Shown: piece by piece, positions 1 to 7,111 of the stretch
How the letters are laid out: every line of letters begins with the position of its first letter
Position numbering within the stretch: position 1 is the first letter of the stretch
Source of the DNA: a virus
Taxonomy: Duplodnaviria > Heunggongvirae > Uroviricota > Caudoviricetes
Direction: 5' to 3' (one strand)
Virus record (IMG/VR): IMGVR_UViG_2585427777_000007
DNA: 7,111 bases
The notes under the pieces: model-generated
Told to the model about the DNA's origin: nothing
Databases searched by the model: none
The model's input: only the letters and a program-made list of their open reading frames with translations
Made by a program: the position numbers and the translations under genes

Positions 1-477
1 CCGGTGGATGACGCAGTCTCCCTGCTGACACGGGGTGGCAGACTGAGCTGTAAGTTTCGACTGTCAGGCGCACTGACCAACAACCAGTTCGGTCTGGGAA
101 TTTATCTGTATACCGATGTAGCGTTACCTGACGTCGTGGCGATGACCGGGACTGGTAACCCGTTCCTGATGTCGTTCTTCACCCAGACCACAGGCGGCAA
201 ACTGAATCTGATGCATCACAAGAAAGCCGGAAACACAAAGTTGGGCGAGTTCGGGAATTACAGTAACGACTGGCAGACGCTGGAGCTGGTGTTCACCGCC
301 GGCAGTGCCACGGTTACTCCGAAACTGAATGGAGTGGCTGGCCCGGCATTCCAGGTCATAAAAGACAGTCTGACACTGGGGCTGAATGCGCTGACGTTAA
401 CTGATATCACTAAAAATGCCGCGTACGGCGTCGATATCGGCAGCCTGGTGCTGGAAATCAATAATCCCGCAGCATAA
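1..477 (+). CDS. hypothetical protein, 5'-partial (frame open to window start); not recognisable as a P2 lysis or tail protein
   Basis: Reading frame is open from base 1 to TAA at 475-477 (ORF track calls GTG at 4). A 23-bp gap containing AGGAGA precedes the ATG of the next gene, so it is co-oriented and probably co-transcribed with the tail module. The translation is Gly/Thr/Asn/Leu-rich and protein-like, but I cannot place it in a family. Confidence 0.45.
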   Translation, partial: PVDDAVSLLTRGGRLSCKFRLSGALTNNQFGLGIYLYTDVALPDVVAMTGTGNPFLMSFFTQTTGGKLNLMHHKKAGNTKLGEFGNYSNDWQTLELVFTAGSATVTPKLNGVAGPAFQVIKDSLTLGLNALTLTDITKNAAYGVDIGSLVLEINNPAA

Positions 478-500
478 GGAAGAGCAGGAGAGCAAAACAG

Positions 501-968
501 ATGCTTAAGACAAACAGTCTGCGAGAGTCCATGCTTCATGGGTGTCGGTGGTGCCAGGCTAATCCCGAGAAATTCACCATTTTCGTGGAGAGCGGCAACA
601 TTGAAACGACCGGGGAAACGCCCTCGTTTGTTTACCGCTATCAGATGGTGATGTTTGTCATGGATTACGCCGGAGAGCTGGACGACCTCACGCTGCCGCT
701 GCTGGCGTGGTTATCCGAAAATCAGCCACAGTTGTTGCTCAACCCTGAGCGTAATCAGGACATCAAATTCTCCGCCGTTATCAATGACGATGACAGCGCC
801 GATCTCCTGTTTACGCTCCCCCTGCGGGAACGCGTTCGCGTCACGCGCAGCAGTCAGGGCACACCGCAGGCAGAACACCTGCCAGAGCCAAAACCCCGCC
901 TGCCATCTTCCGAAGGCGACTGGTCGCATATATTCCAGGATGTGACGTGGGGTGAAAGCGATGGATAA
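501..968 (+). CDS. R: phage tail completion protein, P2 gpR-like
   Basis: ATG at 501 with AGGAGAGCAAAACAG upstream. 155 aa, with a central ...LPLLAWLSENQP... segment as I recall in the gpR family. Sits immediately upstream of S-V-W-J-I-H in the canonical P2 order. Assignment is from gene order and motif recall, not a search. Confidence 0.7.
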   Translation: MLKTNSLRESMLHGCRWCQANPEKFTIFVESGNIETTGETPSFVYRYQMVMFVMDYAGELDDLTLPLLAWLSENQPQLLLNPERNQDIKFSAVINDDDSADLLFTLPLRERVRVTRSSQGTPQAEHLPEPKPRLPSSEGDWSHIFQDVTWGESDG

Positions 969-3421: not shown

Positions 3422-4022
3422 TTCGTTGTTACCACCATCAGCCAGCAATTTCATGCGTTGTGCCGAAGCCGTCGGAACACGCATTACAGACATTCCGGTA
3501 GACCTCAACACGTTGTGGTCGCCGGACACCTGCCCGGTGCATCTGCTGCCTTATCTCGCCTGGGCGTTTTCCGTTGACCGCTGGGATCGCAACTGGCCGG
3601 AAGAGACAAAGCGACAGGTAATTCGTGATGCATGGCTGATACACCGACACAAAGGGACCATCAGCGCACTGCGAAGAGCCGTGGAGCCTCTCGGCTACCT
3701 GATTGAAGTAAAGGAGTGGTGGCAACTCAATGAGGAGCCTGGGACATTTCGCATTGTTGTCGGAGTACTTGATCAGGGCATCACCGATGAAATGTATCAG
3801 GAACTTGAGCGCCTTATTGCGGATGCAAAACCAGTAAGTCGCCATCTGACGGGGCTGGCGATCAGCCTGAGTGTGAACGGAAAGATTTTCGTTGGTACGG
3901 GATGCTATTACGGCGACGCCCTGACGGTTTATCCCTACACCCCGGAGTCCATTATTGTCGAAGGGGATTATTTCCCTGCCCCGGCCATTCATTTAATTGA
4001 TAATCTGAGAGTAAACGCATGA
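3414..4022 (+). CDS. I: tail/baseplate protein I
   Basis: The ORF track frame starts at GTG 3381, but the ATG at 3414 overlaps the J stop (ATGAGTAA) and gives an MSNSLLPP... N-terminus like P2 gpI. Conserved ...WSPDTCPVHLLPYLAWAFSVDRWD... and ...ERLIADAKPVSRHL... segments. Stop TGA 4020-4022 overlaps the H start. Confidence 0.8.
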   Translation: MSNSLLPPSASNFMRCAEAVGTRITDIPVDLNTLWSPDTCPVHLLPYLAWAFSVDRWDRNWPEETKRQVIRDAWLIHRHKGTISALRRAVEPLGYLIEVKEWWQLNEEPGTFRIVVGVLDQGITDEMYQELERLIADAKPVSRHLTGLAISLSVNGKIFVGTGCYYGDALTVYPYTPESIIVEGDYFPAPAIHLIDNLRVNA

Positions 4023-5833
4023 CAGTGAAATACTACGCCATTCTGACTAATCAGGGCGCGGCACGACTGGCTAACGCGACGATGCTCGGCAGTAAGCTGA
4101 ATCTGACGCGAATGGCCGTTGGTGATGCAAATGGTGTGTTACCAACACCAGACCCTGCACAAACAAAACTGATTAACCAGAAACGCATTGCACCGCTGAA
4201 TCTTCTGAGTGTTGACCCTAACAATCAGAGCCAGATTATTGCGGAGCAAATCATCCCTGAAAGCGAGGGAGGATTCTGGATCCGTGAGATTGGTCTTTAT
4301 GATGATAAAGGTGTACTCATTGCGGTGGCAAACTGCCCGGAAACGTACAAACCGCAGTTGCAGGAAGGCAGTGGACGCACCCAGACTATCCGCATGATTC
4401 TGGTTGTCACGAACACCGAAGCCATCACGCTGAAAATCGACCCGTCTGTGGTTCTGGCAACCCGCAAATATGTGGATGATAAAATATCAGAGCACGAGCA
4501 GTCACGACGTCACCCGGACGCCTCGCTGACCGCAAAAGGCTTTGTTCAACTTAGCAGCGCCACCAACAGCACCTCTGAAACGCTGGCCGCAACACCGAAA
4601 GCGGTTAAGGCTGCATATGACCTGGCTAACGGGAAATATACCGCTCAGGATGCGACTACGGCACGAAAAGGCCTTGTTCAACTCAGTAGCGCCACCAACA
4701 GCACCTCTGAAACGCTGGCCGCCACACCGAAAGCGGTTAAGGCTGCATATGACCTGGCTAACGGGAAATATACCGCTCAGGATGCGACTACGGCACGAAA
4801 AGGCCTTGTTCAACTCAGTAGCGCCACCAACAGCACCTCTGAAACGCTGGCCGCCACACCGAAAGCGGTTAAGGCTGCATATGACCTGGCTAACGGGAAA
4901 TATACCGCTCAGGATGCGACTACGGCACGAAAAGGCCTTGTTCAACTCAGTAGCGCCACCAACAGCACCTCTGAAACGCTGGCCGCCACACCGAAAGCGG
5001 TTAAGGCTGCATATGACCTGGCTAACGGGAAATATACCGCTCAGGATGCGACTACGGCACGAAAAGGCCTTGTTCAACTCAGTAGCGCCACCAACAGCAC
5101 CTCTGAAACGCTGGCCGCCACACCGAAAGCGGTCAAGGCTGCATACGATCTGGCAAACGGAAAACAACCGGCAGATGCCACGCTCACTGCTCTGGCAGGA
5201 CTTGCCACTGCAGCAGATCGGTTGCCTTATTTTACCGGAGCAGACCGCGCAGCGCTGGCAACCCTTACAGCTATTGGTCGCGCTATTATCGCTAAGGGCA
5301 GTATAAAAGATGTCCTCAATTACCTTGGTTTAGGAGAAGGCTCGGCGCTACCCGTTGGTGTGCCTGTTCCGTGGCCCACCGCCACACCGCCAGCAGGCTG
5401 GTTAAAGTGCGACGGGCGCGCCTTTACAAAAGAACAATATCCTGTTCTGGCCAGAGCCTACCCGACCCTCCGTCTTCCTGATTTACGCGGTGAGTTTATC
5501 CGTGGATGGGACGACGGGCGCAAAGTTGATACGAGGCGTTCATTGCTAAGTGGTCAGGCTGCAACATTTATTCGTACAGCTTTGCAGGATTATTACGGTT
5601 ACGATCTGAATACTAATGTCAAAGTAGGTATCGCTTTTGCTACTGCTGATTCTGTTATAACCGTTGGAAACCCAGCTAATCCTAAAGCAGGAAATAATAG
5701 CGATTATGTTCCTGCATCAGCAGATAACTCCATAATGGGTACTCAAAGGACAGCGGAGGATAATTTTACCGGGGCATGGATATCAATGCGCCCCCGCAAT
5801 GTTGCGTTTAATTACATCGTAAGGGCCGCATAA
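4019..5833 (+). CDS. H: tail fibre protein H (P2-like N-terminal anchor, tandem fibre repeats, tail-collar-like domain, variable receptor-binding tip)
   Basis: ATG at 4019 overlaps the I stop (ATGA). 604 aa. N-terminal ~160 aa (...MAVGDANGVLPTPD...GGFWIREIGLYDDKGVLIAVAN...EHEQSRRHPDASLTAKGF) match the P2 gpH constant region. Then five copies of ...VQLSSATNSTSETLAATPKAVKAAYDLANGK..., the phage tail fibre repeat. The C-terminal ...PAGWLKCDGRAFTKEQYPVLARAYP...LPDLRGEFIRGWDDGR resembles a tail-collar domain, followed by a divergent tip ending RPRNVAFNYIVRAA. Confidence 0.9.
   Translation: MTVKYYAILTNQGAARLANATMLGSKLNLTRMAVGDANGVLPTPDPAQTKLINQKRIAPLNLLSVDPNNQSQIIAEQIIPESEGGFWIREIGLYDDKGVLIAVANCPETYKPQLQEGSGRTQTIRMILVVTNTEAITLKIDPSVVLATRKYVDDKISEHEQSRRHPDASLTAKGFVQLSSATNSTSETLAATPKAVKAAYDLANGKYTAQDATTARKGLVQLSSATNSTSETLAATPKAVKAAYDLANGKYTAQDATTARKGLVQLSSATNSTSETLAATPKAVKAAYDLANGKYTAQDATTARKGLVQLSSATNSTSETLAATPKAVKAAYDLANGKYTAQDATTARKGLVQLSSATNSTSETLAATPKAVKAAYDLANGKQPADATLTALAGLATAADRLPYFTGADRAALATLTAIGRAIIAKGSIKDVLNYLGLGEGSALPVGVPVPWPTATPPAGWLKCDGRAFTKEQYPVLARAYPTLRLPDLRGEFIRGWDDGRKVDTRRSLLSGQAATFIRTALQDYYGYDLNTNVKVGIAFATADSVITVGNPANPKAGNNSDYVPASADNSIMGTQRTAEDNFTGAWISMRPRNVAFNYIVRAA
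4535..5164 (+). repeat. tandem array of 132-bp (44-codon) repeats inside H: 4 full copies plus 1 truncated/diverged copy
   Basis: Unit starts at 4535, 4667, 4799, 4931 and 5063. Copies 2-4 (4667-5062) appear identical base for base by eye. Copy 1 differs at about 4 positions. Copy 5 diverges after about 85 bp and runs into unique sequence. Confidence 0.9.
5313..5338. other. candidate site-specific invertase crossover site (hix/gix/cix-like) at the H constant/variable junction
   Basis: TCCTCAATTACC TT GGTTTAGGAGAA is a 26-bp imperfect palindrome around an ACC-TT-GGT core. It resembles, from memory, the AAACC-NN-GGTTT core of Din-family sites, and it sits exactly where cassette homology begins. 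Not verified against a consensus. Confidence 0.3.
5327..5525 (+). repeat. direct repeat copy 1 (about 200 bp, roughly 90% nt identity to 5841-6040): conserved 5' part of the tail-fibre C-terminal cassette
   Basis: Aligns to 5841-6040 with scattered mismatches, from ggtttaggagaaggctcggcgct... through ...ggatgggacgacgggcgcaa. Encodes GEGSALPVGVPVPWPTATPPAGWL...LPDLRGEFIRGWDDGRK in both copies. Confidence 0.85.
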
Positions 5834-5852
5834 AAACGTTGGTTTGGGGGAA
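5827..5852. other. candidate site-specific invertase crossover site, second copy, immediately after the H stop codon
   Basis: CGCATAAAAACG TT GGTTTGGGGGAA has an AAAAAC-G-TT-GGTTT core at the start of the second cassette, in the same orientation as the 5313-5338 site. Not verified against a consensus. Confidence 0.3.
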
Positions 5853-6040
5853 GGCTCGGCGCTGCCCGTTGGTGTACCTGTTCCGTGGCCCACTGCCACA
5901 CCGCCAGCAGGCTGGTTACAGTGCAACGGAGCTACGTTCACCAAAGAACAATATCCTGTTCTGGCCAGAGTCTACCCGACCCTCCGTCTTCCCGATTTGC
6001 GCGGTGAGTTTATCCGTGGATGGGACGACGGGCGCAAGAT
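5841..6040 (+). repeat. direct repeat copy 2 (partner of 5327-5525)
   Basis: Same alignment as above. The offset between copies is 514 bp, so recombination between them would fuse the second cassette to H in frame. Confidence 0.85.
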
Positions 6041-6317
6041 TGACGAGGGGCGTAAGTTGCTTTCATGGCAGAAAGGTACACTGGTCGGCGGTCATGACGA
6101 TAACGATTCTTCGCTTGATATCTCGTACATGAGTAACGGAAATAATATTGACTATGGCGGCGATAAGGTGTTTGCGGGGAATTACCGTAGCGATTATTTG
6201 TGGTACGTAATTCTGGGTGGAACAAACAGTCGCGCAAAAGCCGAATTAAACGGAGCATTCTTTAACATAACCCGCCCCCGCAATATCGCGTTTAACTATA
6301 TCGTGAGGGCGGCGTGA
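5844..6317 (+). CDS. silent alternative tail-fibre C-terminal cassette (tail-collar-like domain plus different variable tip); no ATG or RBS
   Basis: Frame is open from 5823 to TGA 6315-6317; the ORF track's start at 5844 is a TTG with no Shine-Dalgarno. The first ~65 aa are about 90% identical to H residues ~441-505, the middle is unrelated, and the last 14 aa (RPRNIAFNYIVRAA) are again conserved. It is in a different frame from H, so it cannot be made by read-through. Confidence 0.7.
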   Translation: MGEGSALPVGVPVPWPTATPPAGWLQCNGATFTKEQYPVLARVYPTLRLPDLRGEFIRGWDDGRKIDEGRKLLSWQKGTLVGGHDDNDSSLDISYMSNGNNIDYGGDKVFAGNYRSDYLWYVILGGTNSRAKAELNGAFFNITRPRNIAFNYIVRAA

Positions 6318-6323
6318 TACCGT

Positions 6324-6938
6324 TCAACTGGCAAGTGCCAGTGGCGCTTCCGGCCAGCTGATTTCAGGTGCCGTGCTGATATCCAGTGCGTTCAGCTCGT
6401 CGATATAATCCAGCACGGCGTTCAGTTTTGCCGTTTCTTCTGGTGTCAGACTGCGACCAGCACGCAGTTTGAGGTTGATAAGATCGACTGACGCCATCGC
6501 CTGTTTCACCCGTTGCTGGCGTTGCTGTCTGGCAACCTCCAGTTCTGCGGCTCGCTGCCGTTCAGTATCGGTTACCCACGCCTCACCGTTCCAGGTATCC
6601 CATGGCGTGGCTGGCTGTTTTGTGGTGGTGTCCGCCGGGTAATCACCCGGTTGGGTAATCAGAACAGGGTTACCGTTCTCCGTGCTGTATACCGTCTCGC
6701 CGCGGTGATCAGGCACATGCTCCCACCCGTTCAGCGTGGCAGTCCGGCAAACCACGTAACCCGAAATTGCCTCCGGCGGTGCATCGGCGCACGAATGTGC
6801 CGGAGTACCCACCCCAAGGGCGAGATACTCCACAGAGGATGAGGTGTATTCCCGGGTTTCCTCGTCATAGTGATATACAGTGATATCGCCCGCTACAGTG
6901 GCGATACCGTTTTCATCCAGAACTGCAGTGTTACTCAT
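6324..6938 (-). CDS. tail fibre assembly protein (Tfa chaperone, lambda Tfa / P2 gpG family)
   Basis: 204 aa. ATG is the complement of 6936-6938, with GAGGG 7 nt upstream on the - strand. C-terminal ...YIDELNALDISTAPEISWPEAPL and central ...W.HV.DHRGETVY.....NGEAWVTDTE... parallel lambda Tfa (...RVDTSTAPDIEWPAVP; ...DHRGKTVY...WNGTAWVKDTE) as recalled. Convergent with the silent cassette, with only 6 bp between the two stop codons. Confidence 0.85.
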   Translation of the reverse strand: MSNTAVLDENGIATVAGDITVYHYDEETREYTSSSVEYLALGVGTPAHSCADAPPEAISGYVVCRTATLNGWEHVPDHRGETVYSTENGNPVLITQPGDYPADTTTKQPATPWDTWNGEAWVTDTERQRAAELEVARQQRQQRVKQAMASVDLINLKLRAGRSLTPEETAKLNAVLDYIDELNALDISTAPEISWPEAPLALAS

Positions 6939-7111
6939 TAAACTGCCCTCACAATGTAATTAAGTGCAATGCTACGGGGTCTGACAGTGATACCCTTCGC
7001 ATACCCGCTTCTGATAGAGGTCAGAATAGTAGCCTGCATACCATTGTCTGACATTGCCATGACAGGATTGCTGAATGTTGTCCCGTCCGGCATTTTAAAG
7101 CTGCCCTCACG
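6938..7111 (-). CDS. 3' end of a third tail-fibre C-terminal cassette (- strand), 5'-partial at window edge; stop overlaps the Tfa start (TAATG)
   Basis: The - strand frame is open from the window edge to TAA (complement of 6938-6940) and ends ...GITVRPRSIALNYIVRAV, homologous to the last 14 aa of H and of the silent cassette. There is an internal ATG at the complement of 7091-7093. It lies directly upstream of, and is coupled to, the - strand Tfa. Confidence 0.5.
   Translation of the reverse strand, partial: REGSFKMPDGTTFSNPVMAMSDNGMQATILTSIRSGYAKGITVRPRSIALNYIVRAV

What the first reader, a model, noticed from the sequence alone, without database searches (positions are those of the whole stretch)
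1..477. Unrecognised ORF where P2 would have its lysis accessory genes, directly upstream of R
In P2 the gene preceding R is lysB/lysC. This at least 158-aa product (...GLGIYLYTDVALPDVVAMTGTGNPFLMSFFTQTTGGK...LVLEINNPAA) does not resemble Rz-like spanins and looks like a beta-rich soluble domain. It is closely linked to R (23 bp, with an RBS), so it is probably late-expressed. It may be a moron or a novel virion or accessory protein.
Basis: partly seen in the sequence, partly recalled or inferred. Interest (0 to 1): 0.4.

Follow-up and report, generated by a model that had tools for sequence, protein, structure and literature searches.

The report
Sialic-acid esterase gene tail in P2-like prophage
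The "unrecognised ORF" is the last 158 codons of a known prophage-borne sialic-acid O-acetylesterase (NanS-p family), carried as an extra cargo gene between the lysis genes and tail gene R of a P2-like E. coli prophage, so it is ordinary, though its P2-specific N-terminal domain is a small new lead.

Summary
Window 1-477 (+) is an ORF open at the window edge, 158 codons, stop at 475-477. A 23-nt spacer with a Shine-Dalgarno site follows, then gene R.

It is not a novel protein. The window start is 100% identical to E. coli MS8345, where the complete ORF is 626 aa. Its domains are DUF1737, a SASA esterase domain (E 3.8e-122 to NanS, PDB 3PT5) and DUF6645. The window holds only DUF6645, the lectin-like jelly-roll C-terminal domain solved for phage phi24B NanS-p (PDB 6YP6; sequence E 3e-30, Foldseek top hit).

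P2-type holin, endolysin, lysB and lysC all lie upstream. The gene is therefore an addition between lysC and R, not a replacement of the lysis genes. Its ATG overlaps the lysC stop, and no promoter or terminator signal exceeds chance. Phage P88 lacks the gene. 375-376 of 5,426 complete E. coli genomes, including O104:H4, carry it.

One lead is new. The N-terminal 68 aa are a variant found only in P2-type contexts, and they persist in a distant P2-like lineage, while the rest of the gene recombines with lambdoid copies. A 2026 preprint shows DUF1737 anchors this protein to the phi24B capsid. A virion role here is possible but untested.

The parts
1..477 (+). 3' end (codons 469-626 plus TAA) of a 626-codon nanS-p-type gene. 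This part encodes most of the C-terminal lectin-like jelly-roll domain (Pfam DUF6645).
   Evidence: ORF and translation. 100% identical to MS8345 L002:15001-15477, which is the end of CDS WP_001545861.1. DUF6645 E 1.5e-20. PDB 6YP6 'NanS-p' E 3e-30. Foldseek top hit 6yp6, E 9e-10, TMq 0.74.
25..357 (+). Core of the DUF6645 Pfam match (fragment residues 9-119). It holds the positions aligned to three of the four aromatic residues of the proposed glycan site of phi24B NanS-p: F498 (nt 88-90), Y503 (nt 103-105), F528 (nt 178-180). The fourth is Leu594 (nt 376-378).
   Evidence: Pfam coordinates. Residue mapping through alignment A3. Site residues Y510/Y515/Y540/F611 come from PMC10462455.
478..500 (+). 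23-nt intergenic spacer with a Shine-Dalgarno-like AGGAG (486-490), 10 nt before the R start codon. No terminator.
   Evidence: Sequence. Promoter and terminator scan not above shuffled expectation.
501..968 (+). P2-type gpR (tail completion/terminator), the downstream neighbour in the same late operon. Its first ~42 nt differ from phage P88; from 543 on it is 95-98% identical to P88-like phages.
   Evidence: PF06891 E 3.8e-39. PHROG 65 'tail terminator'. Megablast hits start at 543. Junction alignment.

Best explanation
Window 1-477 encodes the C-terminal carbohydrate-binding-type jelly-roll domain of a NanS-p-family sialate O-acetylesterase. The full protein (626 aa) has three parts: an N-terminal DUF1737 domain, an SGNH/SASA esterase domain that removes the 9-O-acetyl group from Neu5,9Ac2-type sialic acids, and this lectin-like domain, which probably targets the enzyme to sialoglycans such as mucin. 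The gene is cargo (a moron) inserted between lysC and R in the late operon of a P88-like (Xuanwuvirus, Peduoviridae) prophage. Its ATG overlaps the lysC stop codon, and it has no promoter or terminator of its own, so it should be made with the lysis and tail-completion proteins late in infection and released at lysis. Shown here: the homology, domain architecture, conserved catalytic blocks, genomic position and distribution. Inferred: the enzymatic activity, the glycan binding and the timing of expression.
For: Identity and completeness:
- Window 1-560 is 100% identical to MS8345. There the CDS is 1,881 nt, intact, and flanked by lysC and gpR.

Architecture and homology:
- DUF1737 (residues 4-53), SASA (75-271) and DUF6645 (477-587).
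- Residues 69-388 match E. coli NanS (PDB 3PT5) at E 3.8e-122. Residues 431-623 match the phi24B NanS-p C-terminal domain (6YP6) at E 3e-30.
- 77-83% amino-acid identity to the copies of Stx2 phage 86, phage 434 and JLK-2012, and 52% to 933W NanS-p.
- The SGNH-type blocks GQSN (S82), GG184-185, QGE242-244 and RPTH (H368) are invariant across the panel. RPTH is the variant already noted for Stx2 phage 86.
- Foldseek with the fragment model puts 6yp6 first, then LamG, galectin and CBM66 jelly rolls.

Function of the family (literature):
- Prophage NanS-p enzymes are active Neu5,9Ac2 esterases that support growth on O-acetylated sialic acid and act on mucin. [quoted passage not shown]

Context:
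- P88 has lysB/lysC followed directly by R. The breakpoints are mapped, and the ATGA overlap with lysC is shown.
- No promoter or terminator signal above chance.
- Present in 375-376 of 5,426 complete E. coli genomes, including O104:H4 C227-11 and 2011C-3493.
Against: - No activity, expression or binding data exist for this allele, and I could not read the O104:H4 paper (Saile 2018) to confirm that it was one of the five alleles tested.
- RefSeq names it only 'DUF6645 domain-containing protein', and NCBIfam has no model hit.
- One of the four aromatic residues of the proposed glycan site is Leu here and two are Tyr-to-Phe changes, so ligand specificity may differ.
- Several copies in IMG/VR are truncated or internally deleted, so the gene is dispensable for the phage.
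- The AF2 model of the fragment is low confidence (pLDDT 56.8).
Confidence: 0.88

Rival explanations
1. It is a virion component that complements rather than excludes the enzyme reading. The N-terminal DUF1737 docks the protein onto hexamers of the P2-type major capsid protein gpN, so the particle displays an esterase plus lectin. That could aid adherence to or penetration of mucus, or de-O-acetylation of surface glycans, as reported for gp84 on the phi24B capsid. The window's domain would then be the outermost glycan-binding tip.
For: - Preprint 10.64898/2026.04.10.717836: full-length gp84 (NanS-p) is present in fresh phi24B virions. Its DUF1737 forms a hexamer in the central hexon pore, with a hairpin-loop Tyr42 as anchor.
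- The first 68 aa here are a distinct DUF1737 variant. tblastn finds it in only 3 of 50,697 phage records, all P2-type by their flanking genes (two filed under Peduoviridae), whereas the full-length protein hits 353 records.
- In E. coli genomes the variant occurs in 376 genomes, the same number as carry the lysC-gene junction.
- All 30 IMG/VR loci with it are P2-type.
- A distant P2-like lineage (MCP 62% identical) has the gene at the same site. Its N-terminus is 52% identical, but the hairpin loop EPG[TV]PWYLMQAMV is conserved.
- The body recombines freely with lambdoid copies while the first ~400 nt stay 100% identical among P2-type copies.
- The gene sits among structural late genes.
- The predicted beta-alpha-beta-loop-beta topology matches the preprint's description (low confidence).
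Against: - There are no virion proteomics or cryo-EM data for any P2-like phage carrying it.
- To my knowledge, solved P2/P4 capsid structures show no such decoration, but P2 itself lacks the gene.
- Exclusive linkage of the N-terminal variant to P2-type prophages could simply reflect one ancient insertion inherited with the phage.
- The residue aligned to Tyr42 is Thr43.
- phi24B binding was specific to the flat central hexon of a T=9 lattice, which a T=7 capsid lacks.
- Decayed copies exist.
- The supporting paper is an un-reviewed preprint.
Confidence: 0.3
2. It is a functionless passenger: a leftover of illegitimate or homologous recombination between a lambdoid prophage and a P2-like prophage in the same cell, drifting towards loss.
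For: - The body is a patchwork of segments 98-100% identical to lambdoid copies.
- Truncated and internally deleted copies occur (L014 218 aa, L030 273 aa, L024/L029 286 aa).
- P88 and about 64% of the E. coli genomes that match this lysB/lysC segment do without it.
Against: - The ORF is intact (626 aa) in MS8345 and in O104:H4.
- The junctions are precise and translationally coupled.
- All catalytic blocks are conserved.
- A 656-aa intact orthologue sits at the same site in a P2-like phage whose capsid protein is only 62% identical. That indicates long-term retention.
Confidence: 0.07
3. It is a standard P2-family lysis accessory protein (LysA/LysB/LysC) or a head/tail completion protein.
For: Only its position next to R in the late operon.
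Against: - No Pfam or PHROG hit to any lysis or morphogenesis family.
- The real holin, M15 endolysin, DUF2570 LysB and LysC lie upstream.
- P88 assembles without it.
- There is strong homology to NanS and NanS-p.
Confidence: 0.01

Closest known systems
NanS-p, the prophage-borne sialate O-acetylesterases of Stx and other lambdoid phages (933W L0105/z1466, phi24B vb_24B_21/gp84, Stx2 phage 86 gp03, phage 434 gp71)
   Same: Same three-domain architecture, DUF1737-SASA-DUF6645. Residues 69-626 are about 80% identical to the 434, JLK-2012 and Stx2-86 copies. The catalytic blocks match, including the RPTH variant. The C-terminal domain is homologous to PDB 6YP6. It lies in a phage late region next to lysis genes.
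   Different: It sits in a P2-type myovirus late operon between lysC and R, instead of downstream of Q/stx and upstream of holin S in lambdoid phages. The N-terminal 68 aa are a separate DUF1737 variant, 21-30% identical to the lambdoid ones with a different hairpin loop. The C-terminal domain is the Stx2-86/434 type, only about 36% identical to the crystallised phi24B type.
E. coli chromosomal NanS (YjhS), the 9-O-acetyl-N-acetylneuraminate esterase, PDB 3PT5
   Same: The catalytic domain is homologous over its whole length (E 3.8e-122, residues 69-388).
   Different: The NanS chain aligns only to residues 69-388 and has no counterpart of the DUF1737 or DUF6645 domains. Vimr's review likewise describes a 'short' K-12 form. 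The window itself contains none of the NanS-homologous part.
phi24B gp84 as a capsid-decorating protein (bioRxiv 10.64898/2026.04.10.717836)
   Same: Homologous protein with an N-terminal DUF1737. The predicted topology is the same: beta-alpha-beta-hairpin-beta (low confidence).
   Different: A different capsid: P2-type gpN, which is T=7 from general knowledge, against phi24B T=9. The anchor loop differs in sequence and length. No virion data exist for the P2-type protein.
P2-family morons (for example P2 orf30, the TO-region genes tin/old/fun, and cdt-V in P2-like prophages)
   Same: A non-essential cargo gene in an otherwise conserved P2-type genome, variably present among close relatives. 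P2-like prophages carrying cdt-V are cited in PMC8065619.
   Different: The insertion site, lysC to R inside the P_O-type late operon, is not one of the classical P2 moron sites I know of (my own knowledge). It has no promoter or terminator of its own.

Membership tests
NanS-p (prophage sialate O-acetylesterase) | Three-domain architecture: N-terminal DUF1737, central SASA esterase domain, extra C-terminal domain | tested here: met
   Pfam on the full 626-aa protein: PF08410 E 3.3e-7 (30.5 bits, cutoff 24), PF03629 E 5.5e-13, PF20350 E 1.9e-19. The window itself contains only the last domain.
NanS-p (prophage sialate O-acetylesterase) | Catalytic domain homologous to NanS, with the family's variant SGNH blocks (GQSN ... 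G ... QGE ... R-x-x-H) | tested here: met
   3PT5 E 3.8e-122. S82/N83, G184/G185, Q242-G243-E244 and H368 are invariant in alignment A3. RPTH is the variant reported for Stx2 phage 86 in PMC10462455.
NanS-p (prophage sialate O-acetylesterase) | C-terminal lectin-like jelly-roll domain homologous to vb_24B_21 residues 423-645 (PDB 6YP6) | tested here: met
   phmmer E 3e-30 over residues 431-623. Foldseek top hit 6yp6, E 9e-10, TMq 0.74, on a low-confidence model.
NanS-p (prophage sialate O-acetylesterase) | Aromatic residues of the proposed carbohydrate-binding site (Y510, Y515, Y540, F611 in vb_24B_21) | tested here: inconclusive
   The aligned residues are F498, Y503, F528 and L594. Three of four are aromatic and one is Leu. 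The mapping assumes 933W numbering equals phi24B numbering (both 645 aa).
NanS-p (prophage sialate O-acetylesterase) | Encoded in the late region of a prophage | tested here: met
   It lies between lysC and gpR of a complete P2-type prophage. This is a different phage type from all described examples, which are lambdoid.
NanS-p (prophage sialate O-acetylesterase) | Esterase activity on Neu5,9Ac2 or mucin O-acetyl sialic acids | not testable with these tools
   Activity is reported for all EDL933 and O104:H4 prophage alleles tested, according to review PMC8065619. I could not check whether this allele was among them, because the primary papers are not held.
DUF1737 capsid-decorating proteins (phi24B gp84 type) | N-terminal DUF1737 domain with a helix, a three-stranded sheet and an anchoring hairpin loop | tested here: inconclusive
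   The Pfam match is above the cutoff. AF2 gives E6-11, H14-26, E29-38, loop 39-45, E46-53, but at pLDDT 54.7. The residue aligned to Tyr42 is Thr43, and the loop carries W45/Y46 instead.
DUF1737 capsid-decorating proteins (phi24B gp84 type) | Physical presence on the capsid | not testable with these tools
   Only indirect support: the N-terminal variant is strictly linked to P2-type phage genomes.
P2 lysis accessory proteins LysB/LysC (Rz/Rz1-like spanins) | Homology to the DUF2570/LysB or LysC families; nested gene pair after the endolysin | tested here: not met
   No such Pfam or PHROG hit. The real DUF2570 and LysC genes are annotated immediately upstream.

The most novel reading that the evidence does not exclude
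DUF1737 may be a modular capsid-docking domain that has been retuned to different HK97-fold capsids. In the examples examined, the N-terminal variants fall into three groups: P2-type prophages, the 434/JLK-2012 lambdoids, and the 933W/Stx2-86 Traversvirus phages. The P2-type variant (hairpin loop EPG[TV]PWYLMQAMV) would dock a sialate esterase plus lectin onto P2-type gpN hexons. That would make these P2-like phages display a mucin-directed enzyme on their capsid. The window's domain would be the exposed glycan-binding tip of that decoration.
Probability: 0.3. Interest if true: 0.55.

Novelty: new member of a known kind. Interest (0 to 1): 0.27.

Why it matters
For genome annotation, RefSeq labels this gene only as a 'DUF6645 domain-containing protein' in about 7% of complete E. 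coli genomes, including the O104:H4 outbreak clone. It can be named a NanS-p-type sialate O-acetylesterase. nanS-p copy number has been linked to growth on O-acetylated sialic acid from mucin, so P2-like prophages should be counted as carriers alongside Stx and lambdoid phages.

For phage biology, the enzyme body is shuffled between phage families while the N-terminal domain stays specific to the P2 type. That pattern gives a concrete, cheap test of the recent claim that DUF1737 is a capsid anchor. It also tests whether temperate gut phages of different morphotypes all display mucin-active enzymes on their heads.

Tried and rejected
- NCBIfam scan of the full protein gave no family.
- The search for homologous proteins with the fragment, the N-terminus and an N-terminal profile returned almost only partial proteins from contig ends. 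This multi-copy gene breaks assemblies, so these searches gave little on distribution or architecture beyond a few DUF1737+DUF6645 short forms.
- A genome-contig scan with a P2-type N-terminal profile found no relative among the GTDB species representatives.
- Megablast of the distant L036 locus against the phage collection found nothing, so its host stays unknown.
- AF2 models of the window fragment and of the N-terminal domain were low confidence (pLDDT 56.8 and 54.7). I used them only for topology and for a Foldseek check that agreed with the sequence result.
- The promoter and terminator scan was not above shuffled expectation.
- The primary papers Saile 2016, Saile 2018 and Rangel 2016 are not held, so I could not confirm that the O104:H4 P2-type allele was assayed.
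- I considered and rejected three readings: spanin or lysis accessory protein, tail or head completion protein, and chance ORF.

Full report
**1. The observation**

On the + strand, frame 1 is open from base 1 to a TAA at 475-477. That gives 158 codons, reading ...PVDDAVSLLTRGGRLSCKF...LVLEINNPAA. The GTG at position 4 reported by the ORF lister is only mechanical, because the ORF runs off the window edge.

After the stop come 23 nt (478-500) with AGGAG at 486-490, and then the ATG at 501. The gene starting there is P2 gpR (PF06891, E 3.8e-39). It is followed by S, V, W, J, I and the tail fibre gene.

**2. What the ORF is**

The fragment matches Pfam DUF6645 (E 1.5e-20). It also matches the C-terminal ends of two long PHROG families of unknown function (E 8.8e-78 and 3.7e-62).

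Megablast against phage genomes splits the first 1,000 bases cleanly in two:
- Bases 1-462/477 hit only Stx-converting and lambdoid phages, inside a gene annotated 'SASA family carbohydrate esterase'.
- Bases 543-1000 hit only P88-like, P2-type phages.

Against complete E. coli genomes, the whole 1,000 bases are found joined in 375 of 5,426 genomes. Eight of these are 100% identical, and O104:H4 outbreak strains match at 99%.

In E. coli MS8345 the window's first 560 bases are identical, and the complete gene is 1,881 nt, or 626 aa. Its features are:
- Pfam domains: DUF1737 (residues 4-53), SASA (75-271) and DUF6645 (477-587).
- Residues 69-388 match E. coli NanS (PDB 3PT5) at E 3.8e-122.
- Residues 431-623 match chain 6YP6 'NanS-p', the crystallised C-terminal domain of phi24B vb_24B_21, at E 3e-30.
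- The protein is 77-83% identical to the copies in Stx2 phage 86, phage 434 and JLK-2012, and 52% identical to 933W NanS-p.
- The family's variant SGNH blocks are invariant in the panel: GQSN with S82, GG184-185, QGE242-244 and RPTH with H368. RPTH is the variant already noted for Stx2 phage 86.

An AF2 model of the window fragment is low confidence (pLDDT 56.8), because the domain is truncated and the alignment is shallow. It is nearly all beta strand. Foldseek places 6yp6 first (E 9e-10, TMq 0.74), followed by LamG, galectin and CBM66 jelly rolls.

The window therefore holds the lectin-like jelly-roll domain of a NanS-p-type sialate O-acetylesterase.

**3. Genomic setting**

The MS8345 locus is a complete P2-type prophage. 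The gene order is: portal, terminase, scaffold, P2-family capsid protein, small terminase, head completion protein, X, holin, M15 endolysin, DUF2570 (LysB), LysC, this gene, R, S, V, W, J, I, H and so on.

The lysis accessory genes are thus present, and this gene is an addition between lysC and R. Phage P88 (Xuanwuvirus) has the same genes but goes straight from lysB/lysC to R.

Aligning the junctions gives these details:
- The left breakpoint lies inside the 3' end of lysC.
- The new gene's ATG overlaps the lysC stop, as ATGA, with GGGAG upstream.
- On the right, the 23-nt spacer and the first ~42 nt of R differ from P88. After that, identity to P88-like phages returns to about 95-98%.
- Promoter-like and terminator-like matches in the region are no more frequent than in shuffled sequence.

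From established knowledge of P2, O through S form a single late transcript. The gene should therefore be transcribed with the late operon and translated in coupling with lysC. This is inference, not shown here.

**4. How it most likely works**

The NanS-p literature reports the following:
- The prophage copies are active Neu5,9Ac2 esterases.
- They allow growth on O-acetylated sialic acid and remove O-acetyl groups from mucin glycans.
- Franke et al. [quoted passage not shown]

By homology, I assign the same mechanism here. The esterase is made late, is released at lysis, and is targeted to sialoglycans by the domain encoded in the window.

Of the four aromatic residues proposed for the phi24B glycan site, three are aromatic here (F498, Y503, F528) and one is Leu594. 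Binding specificity may therefore differ.

**5.

The N-terminal domain is not the lambdoid one. The evidence is as follows.
- Residues 1-68 are 21-30% identical to the 434/JLK-2012 and 933W/Stx2-86 variants. They carry a longer hairpin, AYEPGTPWYLMQAMV.
- tblastn of these 68 aa against 50,697 phage records finds three hits, all 100% identical and all in P2-type genomes. The full-length protein hits 353 records.
- In complete E. coli genomes, the N-terminal DNA occurs in 376 genomes. The lysC-to-N-terminus junction also occurs in 376, whereas the gene as a whole matches in 1,722 genomes at 5,823 places.
- About 36% of the genomes that match this lysB/lysC segment carry the insertion.
- All 30 IMG/VR contigs that encode the variant have P2-type neighbours: gpN, L, X, lysB and lysC upstream in all 30, a matching holin and endolysin in 26, and R, S and V downstream wherever the contig reaches that far.
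- Four of those contigs belong to a much more distant P2-like phage, with capsid protein 62% and gpR 57% identical and a different lysozyme. It has an intact 656-aa orthologue at the same site. Its N-terminus is 52% identical, SASA 71%, and the C-terminal domain only 35% identical to this one. The hairpin EPG[TV]PWYLMQAMV is conserved.
- At the DNA level, four P2-type copies are 99-100% identical over the first 400 nt and then diverge to 69-91%. Lambdoid copies are 49-54% identical at the start but up to 98-100% identical in body segments.

So the body is exchanged with lambdoid copies while the N-terminus stays with the P2-type phage.

A 2026 preprint reports that phi24B gp84, the same family, is a capsid-decorating protein. 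Its DUF1737 sits as a hexamer in a hexon pore, anchored by the hairpin Tyr42, and the full-length protein is present in fresh virions. A low-confidence AF2 model of the P2-type N-terminus has the same beta-alpha-beta-hairpin-beta order.

This makes a virion-display role plausible here. Linkage by descent from one old insertion would explain the same distribution, and there are no virion data. I put this reading at about 0.3.

**6. Comparison with what is known, and novelty**

The protein passes every sequence-level membership test for NanS-p. Activity could not be tested.

It differs from described members in three ways:
- the host phage type, a P2-like myovirus rather than a lambdoid phage;
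- the insertion site, lysC to R;
- the DUF1737 variant.

I found no paper in the searchable library that mentions NanS-p in a P2-like phage. Vimr 2013 and others do note 'long' nanS paralogues in many non-Stx prophages. The O104:H4 strains studied by Saile et al. 2018 carry this very locus. Their paper is not held, so I could not check whether this allele was one of the five assayed.

I rate it a new (undescribed) member of a known kind, of low to moderate interest.

**7. Limits**

- The window contains only the C-terminal domain. Everything about the rest of the protein comes from genomes identical to the window over its first 560-1,000 bases.
- Some copies in metagenome-derived contigs are truncated or carry an in-frame deletion that fuses the SASA 'SAFTQ' to the C-terminal 'FFTQ'. 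The gene is therefore dispensable for the phage.

Noticed in passing
window 4534-5164 (inside tail fibre gene 4019-5833): A 132-nt tandem repeat, 4.8 copies at 98% match, encoding a 44-aa repeat (...KGLVQLSSATNSTSETLAATPKAVKAAYDLANGKYTAQDATTAR...). The MS8345 fibre is 560 aa against 604 aa here, a difference of 44 aa that would fit one repeat unit (not checked by alignment).
   Followed up: partly
window 5792-5833 and 6938-6979; ORFs 5844-6317 (+), 6324-6938 (-), 6938-7093 (-): A 42-nt inverted repeat (74% complementary) brackets an alternative fibre C-terminus, a tail-fibre assembly gene on the opposite strand, and a reversed fibre-end fragment ending ...NYIVRA. This looks like a Gin/Cin/Pin-type invertible host-range segment. 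MS8345 has a 'recombinase family protein' just downstream (L002 22904-23503), and its segment is arranged differently from the window.
   Followed up: partly
L036-L039 (IMG/VR), for example L036:6001-7971: A distant P2-like phage (capsid protein 62% identical, different lysozyme-type endolysin) carries an intact 656-aa NanS-p-type gene at the same lysC-R site, with a C-terminal domain only 35% identical to the one here. There is also a ~400-nt gap before R. No match in the phage collection, and the host is unknown.
   Followed up: partly
L024:5019-5876 and L029 (286 aa); L030 (273 aa); L014 (218 aa): Decayed or shortened P2-type copies. L024 and L029 have an in-frame deletion joining the esterase motif 'GGSAFTQ' to the C-terminal 'FFTQTTDGK'. 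The result is a DUF1737 plus half-SASA plus half-DUF6645 chimera that lacks the QGE and His catalytic blocks.
   Followed up: partly
L005 (ON470599.1 vB_EcoM-569R5) and L006 (PV468777.1): Deposited P2-like phage genomes end in the middle of this gene, where it is annotated 'hypothetical protein' or left as a misc_feature. The cause is probably that the multi-copy nanS-p body breaks short-read assemblies. The many 'partial' database proteins fit the same explanation.
   Followed up: no
L002:13597-15477 and equivalents in RefSeq: PGAP names the protein only 'DUF6645 domain-containing protein', although the central domain matches NanS at E 3.8e-122. The same family in phage records is variously called 'SASA family carbohydrate esterase', 'DUF1737 domain-containing protein', 'yjhS' or 'hypothetical'. 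The annotation is inconsistent.
   Followed up: yes
window 501-542: The first ~42 nt of gene R, plus the spacer, diverge from P88-like phages, while the rest of R is 95-98% identical. The right-hand recombination boundary of the insertion therefore lies inside the 5' end of R, not in the intergenic spacer.
   Followed up: partly
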